A DNA stretch of 40,621 bases, from sequence record PX596819.2, one strand, 5' to 3'. The position numbers and the translations under genes are program-made. Shown here piece by piece: positions 874 through 18,528 of the stretch (position 1 is its first letter; every line of letters starts with the position of its first letter). The notes below the pieces were generated by a model. The model was given only the letters and a program-made list of their open reading frames with translations, was not told the DNA's origin and searched no databases. This stretch comes from a phage.

Positions 874-2637
874 CTAGTGGAACGTAACGTATGACCCAAG
901 TCCAAGCTCATCGTCCGTATCGTGAGTTACCCTGACACCATTGTCCCAGAACTCAGTGTGGATGGACTCGAAGCCTTTCCGTGGGTTCTCCATCTGTTCC
1001 TCCAGCCACTCCTCAGTGACTTCACGTTCGCCTTTGTTGGCATCCTTAGCCATAGACTCAACGAAGAACTGTACACCGATAGCCAGCGCATCAAGTCGGT
1101 CATCGTGTGCCAAGGCTCCACGTTCACGAGATATACGTGTCATCTGGTAGAAGAGAGAGTAGATAGGGTTACGAACACCATCCTTATCAGAGGCTGACTG
1201 GTAGTCTTGGACGATAGCAGCAGCGTTAACGATAAGTCTGTGAGACCCCATGATAGGCTCCAGAACGTCACAGATTCGGAGTTCTTTCTGACCCTTACTC
1301 TTCACTTCAGTTACAGCAGCAGGATGGATACGGGCCGCTACAGGCTTGAATAACTCAAGGTACATACCATCACCGAAGTTACCCTCAATGACGTATTCGT
1401 TGACCTTCCACTTACGACCAATCTTAGCCAGAGCTTCCAGCGTAGAGTCTTCATAACCGCCACGCATACCACCAACTTCCATCGCGAAGATGTAGCCGTT
1501 GAGCTGGTACAATACAGCATAGCCAGTTTCATCCTTACCACGACCACTAGGGTCAATGACAAGAATCTTCTGGGTGTATGAACTGAAGGCAGAACCTACA
1601 GTCTGATACGTGTGGTATGAGTCACCCATGAGTCCAACGTTAGGAACGTCCTCACGCTTGTTCTGAGGGTTTGGCAGCCATTGGTAGACCATTGGGCTGG
1701 ACGCTGGGTCCAAGTCTGCTACGATAAGGTCACGGAGCTTCAGAGGGTACTTCTCGGCATCACTCAGGTTCGGGTTAAGCATGAACTGTAGAGCGAAGCC
1801 AGCTTTACCATAGGACAGCTCACGTTCCTTCAGGTCAATATCATCGAAGCGTACTTCATCAGTCGGACGCCAGTAGAAGGCCTCAGGGTCCTCTTCCAGC
1901 TCTGCTTGAAGCATAGGAGCCAGACGGTCGCCGTAAGACTGCCAGTCCTTCCTGTCGCGTGGATAACGAGCTGGCCAGATAGTAGTGGTGTACCCACGAC
2001 CTTCCAGCTCACGGTACAGGGTCATCTCGTTCTGAGGAGTACCCAGATAGATGATTGTACCTCCCGGCTTCAGGATAGCGTCGAACTCTTTCACAAGCTC
2101 TGATAGACGGTCTCGCGCAGCCTGAGTAGCAGAGTTGTTTGGAACCTCCACGTCATCGGCAATCAGGATGTCAGCACGACTACCAGTTAACTGACCAGTG
2201 ATACCAACTGACTTAACCGAAGGTGAGTGGTCTGGCTTGGCTGGCCCAACGTCGAAGCTAATAACCGCGTCCCTCTGTCCCTGCTTAGGCTTGAGTTCCT
2301 GAAGCTGAGGCATGAGGTCGATGATACGCTTGATGAAGATGGAGTTCGCATCGGCTCGTTCCTTTGAGGCCGACACAATCATGAACTTCAAGTCTGGGTT
2401 GTTCCATAGCTTCCAGACAACGAAACCACAGGTTAGAAACGACTTACCAATACCACGGAAAGCCTGAAGGATGAAGCGGCGATTATCCCCAGCAGCCAGC
2501 TTCTTACACATATCTATCTGGCAGCGGGTTGGAACCGGAAGGCTAAGAGCTTTCCAGAGAACGAAGATGAAGAACACGAAGTCTGCCTTCATACGGGCAG
2601 TCATTAGCGCCTGACGCGCCACTAAGTCTTTACTCAA
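874..2637 (-). CDS. gp19: Terminase large subunit (DNA maturase B, gp19)
   Basis: 587 aa, same size class as T7 gp19; last large gene of the map; ATPase and nuclease regions recognisable. Confidence 0.93.
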
Positions 2638-16462: not shown

Positions 16463-17028
16463 TAGTCCCTCCCGATGTCAGACATCATGTTGTAACGACC
16501 AGTGTCCATCTCGTATTCCATGACCTGCTGATAGAGTTCTGCTTCCTGCTCACGAAGGTACAGTTCAGACTCTGGGCTACCGAAGAACTTAGCGTTGAAC
16601 TCACGGCTAGCCTTTGTAACGATGTAGTCCCTGAAGACCACTGGCATCTCAGAGAATGGTTTCATCTCAACAAGCTCTACCGTTATAGGGTCGGTGAAGG
16701 TGGTTGACTGAGTGGACAGGTCGTACAGGTATCCACCCATGTTGCTATAATAGCTGGTGGCCCCGGCAGTCATTACACGAAGGTATGACGGTAGGAATCG
16801 AATCCTGTTGTCTTTGACATCAGGTGTCAGGATAGCAGCTTCGTTGATGTTAAAGTTCCAGCCTTTAGCTTGGACCTGACGATTGACACGATGCAGGATA
16901 CGCTGAGCGTTCGAGATGTCAGCGTTCCCCTCGTCAAGCTGTAGGACTGCTGGTTCACCGATAGCAGCTAACATATCGTTGATGGCATCTAAATCATCGT
17001 TAGCGTTAAGTGGAATGTATTGAGCCAT
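16462..17028 (-). CDS. gp11: Tail tubular protein A (gp11)
   Basis: 188 aa vs 196 in T7; synteny. Confidence 0.88.
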   Translation of the reverse strand: MAQYIPLNANDDLDAINDMLAAIGEPAVLQLDEGNADISNAQRILHRVNRQVQAKGWNFNINEAAILTPDVKDNRIRFLPSYLRVMTAGATSYYSNMGGYLYDLSTQSTTFTDPITVELVEMKPFSEMPVVFRDYIVTKASREFNAKFFGSPESELYLREQEAELYQQVMEYEMDTGRYNMMSDIGRD

Positions 17029-17040
17029 AGGCCCTCCTTA

Positions 17041-17086
17041 AGCAAAAAAAAAAACCCTCAAGCACCCGAAGGCACCCAAGGGGTTT
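17041..17086 (-). terminator. Tphi-like intrinsic terminator after the capsid gene
   Basis: Minus strand AACCCCTTGGGTGCC-TTCG-GGTGCTTGAGGG followed by T11: GC-rich stem, UUCG tetraloop and U-tract; same position as T7 Tphi. Confidence 0.7.
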
Positions 17087-17089
17087 CAA

Positions 17090-18402
17090 TTAGTTTGTGA
17101 AAGATACGTTGAAGGAACGCACAGGCGAACCGTCATACAAAACAATCACTGGACCTTCCACGCCAGAGGTGGCCCTGAAGTAGAGACTGTTGGTTCTACG
17201 GGAGTAACTAACACCATCAGGCGTAGTAACATCAAGAAGCGACCAGTCGGTCACATCTGAAAGCTCCGGGAAGTCAACCTTCAAGCTGGTTCCCACCGTA
17301 GAACTATACGTCTCTAAGGTAGGACCCTCTGTAGAGAGGGCCTTAAGGGTCGTTAACCCCCTGCCGCTGCTGTGAAAACCAGTGCGCCAGCAGCTTCAGG
17401 ACGCAGGCCACCGTGTCCCATAGCGTACTTACCAACAATCAGGTCGCCCTGAGCATCGACGTCACGGTCACGTTCCAGTGCCAAATCACGCAGCTTAACA
17501 GTACCAACAGCAGAACGGTGAGAGAACAGGCCAACAACGTTGTCAAGAGCAACTTTAGTATCACCACCAGCAGTAGCTGGGAAGGCGTGCTTCTGACCAC
17601 TCGCAATAGTGATGCCGTCAGCGCCACGAGTTTCACCAGCACCACCCTGAGTCAAGTGTGGAACTTCAACAACAACGAAGCCCATCACGTTACGGATGTT
17701 ACCAGTCTCTGGGTCAATCAGCGCAGCATAGTTAGCAGCGTTAGGCATCAGAGCAGCGAGGATTGCAGAGTAGTTGTCAGGTGTGGTGTAGAAGTAACGG
17801 TCGCCAGCAGGAACGTAGTTGGCGGTCAGCTTCGCACGAGCAATAGTCAATTGACCAATGATTGCTTCACCTAGTTTAGCTGGAGTGTTGAGGTCAGCTT
17901 TCTTACCAACTTCCAGTACGGACGCAGTACCTAGACCAGCGATGTTCTCGTTGGATGCGGATGGTAGGTTGCACAGGATAGCCATTTCAGCCAGAACAGC
18001 ACCATCAGCAGCGATAGCCAGAGCTTCACCCAACTGGTTGGAATACTCACCAGCAACGTCATAGTGGTTCATCGCGTCTTCAATGTCGAAAATCATCACA
18101 TCGGCAGTCAGAAGACCATCAATGGTAATCACTTTCTCGGTATGTTTGATACCTTTGCGCTTATCGGACAGTCGCTCACCGGGAGCCAGATACACACCAG
18201 AGGTGCGACCCATGACCGGGAACTGAGCAGACTTGCCATTCTGAATGGTACGGACAATATGCTTGTCAGCCGTTACAGAGCGGCGAGTGAATGCGGTCAG
18301 GACTTCACCAGCAAATACCTTCAGGAACAACGCTAGAGCATCGGAACTGGATTTACCTTTACCTTGGTCTGTACCAATTTTCTGACCAGGAACGTTTGCC
18401 AT
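17090..18402 (-). CDS. gp10B: Minor capsid protein 10B, predicted -1 frameshift product of gene 10
   Basis: Slippery heptamer G GTT TTC (plus-strand gaaaacc at about 17374-17380) about 6 codons before the 10A stop; the -1 frame stays open to 17090, adding roughly 94 aa. The 68-aa track ORF 17090..17296 is in exactly that -1 frame. Confidence 0.5.
17353..18402 (-). CDS. gp10A: Major capsid protein 10A
   Basis: 349 aa vs 345 in T7; ends ..ALVFTAAAGG; strong promoter and leader upstream, terminator downstream. Confidence 0.93.
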   Translation of the reverse strand: MANVPGQKIGTDQGKGKSSSDALALFLKVFAGEVLTAFTRRSVTADKHIVRTIQNGKSAQFPVMGRTSGVYLAPGERLSDKRKGIKHTEKVITIDGLLTADVMIFDIEDAMNHYDVAGEYSNQLGEALAIAADGAVLAEMAILCNLPSASNENIAGLGTASVLEVGKKADLNTPAKLGEAIIGQLTIARAKLTANYVPAGDRYFYTTPDNYSAILAALMPNAANYAALIDPETGNIRNVMGFVVVEVPHLTQGGAGETRGADGITIASGQKHAFPATAGGDTKVALDNVVGLFSHRSAVGTVKLRDLALERDRDVDAQGDLIVGKYAMGHGGLRPEAAGALVFTAAAGG

Positions 18403-18505
18403 ATGATAATTCTCCTATTCAATTGAAAGATAAAGTTTATTACTTACTGTACGCCCAATCCGTATGGACTGAAGTAATATGGGAAACCTTGAGTCTTTCT
18501 CTTGG

Positions 18506-18528
18506 TCTCCCTATAGTGATAGTTTAGT
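18506..18528 (-). promoter_or_regulatory. Phage RNAP promoter (phi10-like), ACTAAACTATCACTATAGGGAGA
   Basis: Identical to the T7 promoter from -8 to +6 (TCACTATAGGGAGA) and different at -12 to -9; upstream of the capsid gene. Confidence 0.7.

What the first reader, a model, noticed from the sequence alone, without database searches (positions are those of the whole stretch)
17090..17400. Conserved -1 programmed frameshift site (G GTT TTC) producing an extended capsid protein 10B
The heptamer GGTTTTC lies about six codons before the 10A stop. The -1 frame is open from there to 17090, adding roughly 94 aa, and the 68-aa track ORF is exactly in that frame. A strong terminator with a UUCG tetraloop and a U11 tract follows at about 17041-17086. 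This mirrors T7 gene 10A/10B but with a longer extension.
Basis: partly seen in the sequence, partly recalled or inferred. Interest (0 to 1): 0.45.

Follow-up and report, generated by a model that had tools for sequence, protein, structure and literature searches.

The report
T7-type capsid gene frameshift (10A/10B)
This is the well-known trick of T7-like phages, in which a small share of ribosomes slip back one base near the end of the major capsid gene and add an extra surface domain; it is genuine here but ordinary, and close relatives already carry the annotation.

Summary
The window is a whole T7-like (Kayfunavirus-type) phage genome read in reverse.

- **Site:** Gene 10A (18402..17353, minus strand, 349 aa) has G GTT TTC at 17380..17374. 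It sits in the same phase and at the same codons as the experimentally proven T7 gene 10 site.
- **Extension:** The -1 frame is open only from 17395. It runs 94 codons past the slip to TAA at 17092..17090, giving a 437-aa, 45.9-kDa 10B, 9.7 kDa larger than 10A. The 68-aa ORF is its 3' part.
- **Terminator:** A T-phi-type terminator follows (17083..17044, UUCG loop, T11).
- **Comparative evidence:** In all 61 related loci scored (plus the window itself), the tail domain lies in the -1 frame and overlaps an NGTTTTC site. The domain is under purifying selection only in that frame (pN/pS 0.20, against 2.09 and 1.31). No start codon or Shine-Dalgarno is conserved.
- **Fold:** The predicted fold is a seven-strand Ig-like sandwich whose first strand lies upstream of the 68-aa ORF's GTG.

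Phage Peacock (tail 86/94 identical) already annotates this joined minor capsid protein. K1F gene10b has been used experimentally for capsid display. The tail is a third module type, unrelated in sequence to the T7/K1F tail and the T3 Big_2 tail. Verdict: real, supported, already known, low interest.

The parts
17353..18402 (-). Gene 10A, the major capsid protein. 349 aa, ATG at 18402, TAA at 17355..17353.
   Evidence: ORF list. Pfam Gp10A-like PF21703, E 5e-105. Closest solved capsid chains are 9vvq, 7y23 and T7 2xvr.
17374..17380 (-). Slippery heptamer G GTT TTC. Zero-frame codons are GTT (342) and TTC (343). After a -1 slip the tRNAs re-pair on GGT and TTT, and the next codon read is CAC at 17374..17372.
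   Evidence: Sequence. Same phase and homologous codons as T7, K1F and all relatives. GTT and TTC are invariant in 43 of 43 distinct sequences, while the neighbouring Ala and Gly third positions vary freely.
17353..17395 (-). The only stretch in which a shift into the -1 frame can yield the long product. The -1 frame has a TGA at 17398..17396, and the zero frame stops at 17355..17353.
   Evidence: Overlap of 40 nt for the window; 31-85 nt in relatives, always containing the heptamer. Sequence.
17315..17374 (-). Tail residues 1-20 (HSSGRGLTTLKALSTEGPTL), a flexible linker. The first six codons are dual-coding with the end of 10A.
   Evidence: AlphaFold2 pLDDT is about 48 for residues 1-20. No frame-specific selection is detectable here.
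17093..17314 (-). Tail residues 21-94, a seven-strand Ig-like beta-sandwich domain (phrog_7473). The stop TAA follows at 17092..17090.
17090..17296 (-). It is the 3' part of the 10B tail reading frame, not a separate gene.
   Evidence: Same frame. No Shine-Dalgarno lies upstream, and the start position varies from tail residue 8 to 33 among relatives. Beta-strand 1 (residues 21-26) lies upstream of this GTG.
17345..17361 (-). Small predicted hairpin (GGGGGUU-AAC-GACCCUU) starting 12 nt 3' of the heptamer. The 10A stop codon spans the last stem base and the loop. It is stronger in this phage than in its relatives.
   Evidence: RNAfold. The relatives have GCGGG and ACCTTT here.
17321..17343 (-). 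Predicted hairpin GGCCCUCU-CUAC-AGAGGGUCC, 31 nt 3' of the heptamer. It is a possible frameshift stimulator or other RNA element; its function is unproven.
   Evidence: RNAfold. It is kept in PE3-1 despite three substitutions. The analogous Przondovirus hairpin shows two compensatory pairs.
17044..17083 (-). Homologue of T7 T-phi, the main late transcription terminator. The foot is CCCC (17083..17080), the loop is UUCG and a T11 run follows.
   Evidence: Terminator scan. Alignment with T7, K1F and 30 or more relatives, all of the form AACCCCTTGGG...TTGAGGGG-Tn.
18504..18526 (-). phi10-type phage RNA polymerase promoter (TAAACTATCACTATAGGGAGAC) that drives gene 10. Context only.
   Evidence: Sequence. 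A promoter is annotated at the equivalent position in PE3-1 and T7.

Best explanation
This is programmed -1 ribosomal frameshifting at G GUU UUC (17380..17374) near the end of the major capsid gene.

- Most ribosomes read on for six more codons and release the 349-aa 10A. A minority slip back one base, with tRNA-Val and tRNA-Phe re-pairing on GGU and UUU. The share is about 10% in T7 and unknown here.
- **The product:** Those ribosomes read 94 further codons and release a 437-aa 10B. It is the complete capsid fold plus a roughly 20-residue flexible linker and a roughly 74-residue Ig-like beta-sandwich.
- **Where it goes:** 10B co-assembles with 10A, so a fraction of capsid subunits display the domain on the outer surface.
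- **Likely role:** By analogy with other phage Ig-like decorations, the domain probably makes weak contacts with carbohydrate or cell-surface material.

Shown here:
- the site, its phase and the open frame;
- their conservation across relatives;
- purifying selection on the -1 frame;
- the lack of an independent start;
- the predicted fold.

Inferred:
- that the protein is made and built into virions, by homology with T7 and K1F;
- its abundance;
- what the domain binds;
- which RNA element, if any, stimulates the slip. Candidates are the local hairpins at 17361..17345 and 17343..17321 and the T-phi terminator foot CCCC, as in T7.
For: - **Same site as T7:** Heptamer, phase and codon position match T7's proven site. 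The same extraction gives T7's annotated 398-aa 10B and K1F's tail. T7's G_GU-type site and its roughly 10% efficiency are described in PMC5009743 and PMC1635266.
- **Frame conserved:** All 61 related loci scored, plus the window, have the tail domain in the -1 frame with an overlap of 31-85 nt that always contains NGTTTTC.
- **Selection:** Nei-Gojobori pN/pS for the domain is 0.20 in the -1 frame, against 2.09 and 1.31 in the other two frames. Variable sites number 50 at third codon positions, against 17 and 14 at first and second.
- **No own start:** No start codon is conserved. The first ATG, GTG or TTG falls anywhere from tail residue 8 to 33, and almost none has a Shine-Dalgarno. The flanking genes 10A and 11 have strong ones.
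- **Fold needs upstream residues:** Beta-strand 1 of the predicted domain (residues 21-26) precedes the only available start, GTG at residue 27.
- **Already annotated:** Phage Peacock, whose tail is 86/94 identical, annotates the joined -1 frameshift minor capsid protein.
- **Experimental support in the genus:** K1F gene10b is described as a -1 frameshift product. GFP or adhesins fused to its 3' end give fluorescent or adherent phages (PMC6277420; PMC13370021).
- **Terminator:** A T-phi homologue with the CCCC foot is present.
Against: - No protein data exist for this phage or, in what I could find, for any phage with this 94-96 aa tail type. The SH4 virion proteomics searched only a database of predicted ORFs, and none was predicted here.
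- No canonical stimulatory structure lies 5-9 nt 3' of the heptamer. The predicted hairpins start 12 and 31 nt away.
- The heptamer is not a perfect X XXY YYZ. Four relatives have AGTTTTC or CGTTTTC.
- The linker shows no frame-specific selection.
- Two natural genomes carry deletions in the tail, so it is dispensable.
- Some lineages, such as PE3-1, have an ATG overlapping the 10A stop (TAATG) that could permit coupled re-initiation. This window has ACG there.
Confidence: 0.87

Rival explanations
1. The tail is made as a free small protein ('gp10.1', 68 aa or similar). Translation would start independently or by coupled re-initiation after 10A terminates, with no frameshift.
For: Many GenBank records and gene callers annotate a separate 54-87 aa hypothetical protein or 'minor capsid protein' here. 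In the PE3-1 lineage an ATG overlaps the 10A stop (TAATG), a classical coupling arrangement.
Against: - In this window the position equivalent to that ATG is ACG. The first start codon is GTG at tail residue 27, with no Shine-Dalgarno.
- Start positions are scattered from residue 8 to 33 among relatives.
- Starting at GTG would delete beta-strand 1 of the predicted domain.
- The frame relation to 10A and the overlap with the slippery site hold in all 61 related loci, which an independent gene would not require.
Confidence: 0.07
2. The -1 product arises from RNA polymerase slippage on the T run, giving mRNA with one T fewer or more, and not from the ribosome.
For: Both mechanisms would produce the same fused protein. 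Phage RNA polymerases can slip on long homopolymer runs (general knowledge).
Against: The run is only four T, well below the lengths at which transcriptional slippage is usually seen (general knowledge). The identical T7 site is treated in the literature as ribosomal frameshifting at a G_GU-type heptamer (PMC5009743).
Confidence: 0.03
3. The open -1 frame is a fortuitous or decaying remnant and nothing functional is made from it.
For: Two natural genomes (L022, L062) have deletions in the tail. T7 10B is non-essential (general knowledge).
Against: Purifying selection is specific to the -1 frame. The domain is conserved across four genera at 37-93% identity. The predicted fold is confident. An open run of 94 codons has a chance probability of about 0.011.
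Confidence: 0.03

Closest known systems
Phage T7 gene 10A/10B -1 programmed ribosomal frameshift (Condron, Atkins and Gesteland 1991; reviewed in PMC5009743)
   Same: Identical heptamer G GUU UUC at the homologous Val-Phe codons a few codons before the 10A stop. The capsid fold is the same. The T-phi terminator with its AACCCC foot lies just after the 10B stop.
   Different: The T7 tail is 56 aa, matches no Pfam family, and is described in the review as not an Ig-like domain. Here the tail is 94 aa with an Ig-like sandwich and no sequence similarity to T7's. The terminator is about 290 nt from the site, where T7's is 'over 200 nt' away.
Phage K1F gene10b (type species of the genus Kayfunavirus)
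   Same: Same genus-level backbone and the same slip site. gene10b is used experimentally as a low-copy capsid display anchor (PMC6277420, PMC13370021).
   Different: The K1F tail is the short T7 type: 48 aa by my reading, '44 triplets' in the paper. It carries the EETLTPxQxAARTRAAN motif and is not homologous to the window's tail.
Joined 'minor capsid protein' annotated in Escherichia phage Peacock (MK903279, QEG09703.1); the record's note cites Citrobacter phage CR8
   Same: Same 437-aa architecture, the same site, and a tail 86/94 identical.
   Different: Only sequence-level differences. Examples are the 10A C-terminus (AAGG against ASAG) and a stronger hairpin around the stop in the window.
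Phage T3 gene 10B, an Ig-like Big_2 tail added by -1 frameshift
   Same: A T7-group capsid gene gaining an Ig-like surface domain through -1 frameshifting (PMC5009743; annotation).
   Different: T3 slips at C CCA AAG, a different position. Its tail is Pfam Big_2 (E 7.8e-10). It shows no detectable sequence relation to this tail.
Ig-like decoration domains of tailed phages (lambda gpV C-terminal domain, T4 Hoc, phage N4 capsid chains)
   Different: No Pfam Ig family matches. Any binding activity is unknown.

Membership tests
T7-group gene 10 -1 frameshift (10A/10B) | The host gene is the T7-type HK97-fold major capsid protein | tested here: met
   Pfam Gp10A-like, E 5e-105. PDB T7 10A 2xvr, E 6.5e-147.
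T7-group gene 10 -1 frameshift (10A/10B) | Slippery heptamer G GUU UUC in X XXY YYZ phase at the homologous Val-Phe codons just before the 10A stop | tested here: met
   17380..17374, phase 2, codons 342-343. Same as T7 (341-342) and K1F.
T7-group gene 10 -1 frameshift (10A/10B) | The -1 frame is open from the site and carries a conserved, selected coding sequence | tested here: met
   94 codons. All 61 related loci in the -1 frame. pN/pS 0.20, against 2.09 and 1.31.
T7-group gene 10 -1 frameshift (10A/10B) | No independent translation start for the tail | tested here: met
   No conserved start codon or Shine-Dalgarno. The window has ACG where PE3-1 has ATG.
T7-group gene 10 -1 frameshift (10A/10B) | Distal 3' stimulator: a T-phi terminator with CCCC downstream of the 10B stop | tested here: inconclusive
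   The homologous terminator with its CCCC foot is present (17083..17044). Whether it stimulates the slip cannot be tested in silico. The T7 requirement is itself unexplained (PMC5009743).
T7-group gene 10 -1 frameshift (10A/10B) | A 10B protein is made at a low ratio and incorporated into capsids | not testable with these tools
   Shown for T7 (about 10%; PMC1635266) and implied for K1F by display experiments. No data exist for this tail type.
Ig-like domains appended to phage structural proteins by frameshift | The appended domain has an Ig-like beta-sandwich fold | tested here: met
Ig-like domains appended to phage structural proteins by frameshift | Sequence membership of a recognised Ig family (Big_2, I-set, FN3, PKD) | tested here: not met
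   No Pfam match at E up to 1. Only phrog_7473, of unknown function. A PDB profile search found nothing significant.
T3-type 10B (Big_2 tail, C CCA AAG site) | Homology of tail and slip site to T3 | tested here: not met
   BLASTP E of 22 and a negative hmmsearch score. The T3 site is CCCAAAG at another position. The T3 tail is Big_2.

The most novel reading that the evidence does not exclude
The 94-96 aa Ig-like tail (phrog_7473) may be a distinct, mobile '10B cassette'. It would be exchanged among Studiervirinae genera between two fixed joints, the G GUU UUC site and the T-phi terminator.

Its frameshifting may be tuned by an unconventional long-spacer RNA element. One candidate is the lineage-specific hairpin 19-31 nt 3' of the site. 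It is supported by compensatory changes in Przondovirus that alter amino acids on both arms. Another candidate is pairing of the GGGGUU next to the 10A stop (17360..17355) with the AACCCC foot of the terminator (17085..17080).

If that pairing exists, it could finally explain T7's puzzling CCCC requirement.
Probability: 0.15. Interest if true: 0.45.

Novelty: already known. Interest (0 to 1): 0.12.

Why it matters
For annotation, this region should be recorded as one joined 10B coding sequence of 437 aa. Most related GenBank records instead list it as a free-standing 'hypothetical protein'.

In practice, the 10B tail is the natural low-copy display site of T7 and K1F-type phages. Knowing that this phage carries a folded Ig-like module there is useful for engineering, and for thinking about adherence to mucus or cell surfaces.

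Scientifically it adds nothing unexpected. The mechanism has been textbook material since 1991, and close relatives already carry the annotation.

Tried and rejected
- **Rfam:** A scan of 16950..17500 at E up to 1 gave only sub-threshold chance hits and no frameshift-element family.
- **Pfam and PDB sequence searches of the tail:** No family and no solved relative.
- **Folding the fused 437-aa protein:** I folded the tail alone, with an alignment of 20 sequences.
- **Virion proteomics for this tail type:** The SH4 study searched only predicted ORFs and so could not have seen it. Searches on Kayfunavirus or Przondovirus with 'frameshift' returned nothing relevant.
- **The 1991 Condron papers and the Sipley paper:** These are not held in the library. 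T7 details are therefore taken from the 2016 review and from general knowledge.
- **Covariation in the window's own hairpins:** Its lineage has too little variation to test them.
- **Heptamer count:** Not informative as evidence, with 3 observed against 3.9 expected.
- **Homology with the T3 tail:** Tested and rejected.

Full report
**What is there**

Read on the minus strand, the window is a complete T7-like phage genome. Its late genes run from high to low coordinates. The best DNA matches, at 92-94% identity over the capsid region, are Kayfunavirus phages such as CLB_P1, LM33_P1 and Peacock.

Gene 10A runs from ATG at 18402 to TAA at 17355..17353 and encodes 349 aa. It is a T7-type major capsid protein: Pfam Gp10A-like at E 5e-105 and PDB T7 10A at E 6.5e-147.

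The heptamer G GTT TTC lies at 17380..17374, with GTT and TTC as zero-frame codons 342 and 343. Six sense codons follow before the stop.

In the -1 frame there is a TGA at 17398..17396. From there the frame stays open to TAA at 17092..17090. A ribosome that slips on the heptamer reads CAC at 17374 and 93 further codons.

The 68-aa GTG ORF (17296..17090) is the 3' part of this frame.

A 12-pair hairpin with a UUCG loop and a run of 11 T (17082..17044) follows the 10B stop. It precedes the strong Shine-Dalgarno and the ATG (17028) of gene 11.

The predicted masses are 36.3 kDa for 10A and 45.9 kDa for 10B.

**Is it more than chance?**

The heptamer alone is not: there are 3 copies in the window against 3.9 expected. 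An open run of 94 codons has a chance probability of about 0.011. The decisive evidence is comparative.

- **Method check.** I extracted the end of gene 10 from annotated GenBank relatives and from T7 and K1F. GGTTTTC sits in the same phase at the homologous Val-Phe codons in T7, K1F and the window's relatives. The same procedure reproduces T7's annotated 398-aa 10B.
- **Frame conservation.** A scan of IMG/VR with the tail profile returned 56 further loci. In all 61 related loci that could be scored, and in the window, the tail domain is in the -1 frame relative to 10A. The two frames overlap by 31-85 nt, and the overlap always contains NGTTTTC. Among the related loci, the site is GGTTTTC in 57, AGTTTTC in 2 and CGTTTTC in 2.
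- **Site invariance.** GTT and TTC are invariant in 43 of 43 distinct sequences, while the third positions of adjacent Ala and Gly codons vary freely.

**Is the -1 frame really coding?**

On a codon alignment of 60 distinct tails, I excluded two with deletions and calculated pN/pS by the Nei-Gojobori method. For the domain part within the Kayfunavirus-type group:

| Frame | pN/pS |
|---|---|
| -1 frame (tail) | 0.20 |
| Zero frame of 10A | 2.09 |
| +1 frame | 1.31 |

Variable sites number 17, 14 and 50 at codon positions 1, 2 and 3. Over all lineages the values are 0.49, against 1.08 and 1.42.

The first 20 residues show no frame-specific signal. That fits a flexible linker that is partly dual-coding with the end of 10A.

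**Is it translated by frameshift or from its own start?**

No start is conserved. The first ATG, GTG or TTG of the -1 frame falls anywhere between tail residues 8 and 33 in different phages, and almost none has a Shine-Dalgarno-like sequence. This explains why gene callers produce 'proteins' of 54 to 87 aa here.

In this window the only candidate is GTG at residue 27, with no Shine-Dalgarno. At the position where the PE3-1 lineage has an ATG overlapping the 10A stop, the window has ACG.

AlphaFold2 on an alignment of 20 sequences gives a mean pLDDT of 81, about 90 over residues 21-94 and about 48 over residues 1-20. The model is a seven-strand sandwich whose first strand (residues 21-26) lies upstream of that GTG. 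The complete domain can therefore only be made by ribosomes arriving from gene 10A.

**What the tail is**

It matches no Pfam family, has no solved relative by sequence and belongs to phrog_7473, of unknown function.

The structural matches of the model are Ig-like domains:

- **Foldseek:** the lambda tail-tube protein V C-terminal Ig-like domain (E 2.7e-3, TM 0.56) and chains of the phage N4 capsid reconstruction.
- **Viral structure library:** the Pectobacterium phage PP81 'minor capsid protein' at E 7.5e-9.

By tblastn the domain occurs in 454 phage records. These include Kayfunavirus, Przondovirus (K11 group), Pektosvirus and a Dickeya phage.

It is unrelated in sequence to the T7/K1F tail (48-56 aa, EETLTPxQxAARTRAAN motif). 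It is also unrelated to the T3 tail, which is Pfam Big_2 and is reached from a different site, C CCA AAG.

**Mechanism**

The site is the G_GU-type heptamer described for T7 gene 10 (PMC5009743). T7 makes 10B in about 10% of translations (PMC1635266).

No hairpin lies at the classical 5-9 nt spacing. RNAfold predicts two hairpins:

- **Nearer hairpin:** small, 12 nt downstream (17361..17345), with the 10A stop codon spanning its last stem base and loop.
- **Farther hairpin:** stronger, 31 nt downstream (17343..17321).

The 106-nt region folds better than shuffled controls (z = -2.6). Covariation cannot be tested in this lineage.

In Przondovirus an 18-pair hairpin 19 nt downstream is paired in 98.7% of cells. 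Two of its pairs show compensatory double changes that alter amino acids on both arms.

The review also records that T7 frameshifting depends, for unexplained reasons, on a CCCC in the T-phi terminator more than 200 nt downstream. The window has the homologous terminator with the same AACCCC foot (17085..17080), as do all relatives. GGGGTT next to the 10A stop (17360..17355) is complementary to that foot. I record this only as a lead.

**What is known already**

- T7 10A/10B has been textbook material since 1991.
- T3's Ig-like 10B is discussed in the 2016 review.
- K1F gene10b is described as a -1 frameshift product. It is used to display GFP and adhesins on a subset of capsid subunits (PMC6277420; PMC13370021).
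- Phage Peacock's GenBank record annotates the joined 437-aa minor capsid protein, with a tail 86/94 identical to this one.
- Other relatives label the tail 'minor capsid protein', but most call it 'hypothetical protein'.
- I found no proteomic confirmation for this tail type. The SH4 virion study searched only predicted ORFs.

**Rivals**

- **Independent or coupled initiation:** contradicted by the missing start and Shine-Dalgarno, by the fold, and by the invariant frame relation with the slip site.
- **Transcriptional slippage:** unlikely on four T.
- **A decaying remnant:** contradicted by frame-specific purifying selection and by conservation across four genera. Two natural deletion variants (L022, L062) do show that the tail is dispensable.

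**Verdict**

It is an ordinary, already-annotated feature of this phage group. The points worth keeping are:

- the annotation lesson: record one joined CDS, not a free 'gp10.1';
- the existence of three non-homologous 10B modules on one conserved joint;
- the unexplained hairpins downstream of the site.

Noticed in passing
window 17090..17374 (-); L008 (K1F), L009 (T7), L067 (T3): At least three non-homologous tails hang on the same capsid gene within the Studiervirinae. They are the T7/K1F short tail, the T3 Big_2 tail (different slip site, CCCAAAG) and this phrog_7473 Ig-like tail. K1F and the window phage belong to the same genus but carry different tails. This suggests cassette exchange between the slip site and the T-phi terminator.
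   Followed up: partly
L006, L007, L027-L064 (Przondovirus), 20-62 nt 3' of the heptamer; window equivalent 17343..17321: Each lineage with the long tail has a stable hairpin 19-31 nt 3' of the heptamer, inside the linker-coding part. In Przondovirus it has 18 pairs, is 98.7% paired across 29 sequences and shows two compensatory pairs (AU/GC and CG/UA) that change amino acids on both arms. It lies too far from the site for a classical frameshift stimulator. Its function is unknown.
   Followed up: partly
window 17345..17361 (-) and 17080..17085 (-): Two window-specific substitutions (GCGGG to GGGGG, ACCTTT to ACCCTT) strengthen a small hairpin around the 10A stop codon. They change the 10A C-terminus from ASAG to AAGG. 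The resulting GGGGTT is complementary to the AACCCC foot of the terminator about 270 nt downstream. This recalls T7's unexplained dependence on a terminator CCCC.
   Followed up: no
L022 (IMGVR_UViG_2974604219_000001) and L062 (IMGVR_UViG_3300045988_007064): Two natural genomes carry deletions that remove the 3' part of the tail domain. In L022 the deletion also removes the terminator and joins the frame directly to the gene 11 ribosome-binding site. The tail is therefore dispensable, unless these are assembly artefacts.
   Followed up: partly
window 17044..17059 (-): The terminator here ends in GAGGG plus T11, where relatives have GAGGGG plus T5-8. One stem G is replaced and the U tract is lengthened.
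   Followed up: no
window 18504..18526 (-): A phage-polymerase promoter of the phi10 type (TAAACTATCACTATAGGGAGAC) lies about 100 nt upstream of gene 10A, at the position annotated in PE3-1 and T7.
   Followed up: no
L003 (PE3-1) 1519..1524 and proteins P0001, P0002, P0004, P0006: In the PE3-1 sub-lineage an ATG overlaps the 10A stop (TAATG) in the tail frame. In those phages the tail could also be made as a free 87-aa protein by termination-reinitiation. The window has ACG at this position.
   Followed up: partly
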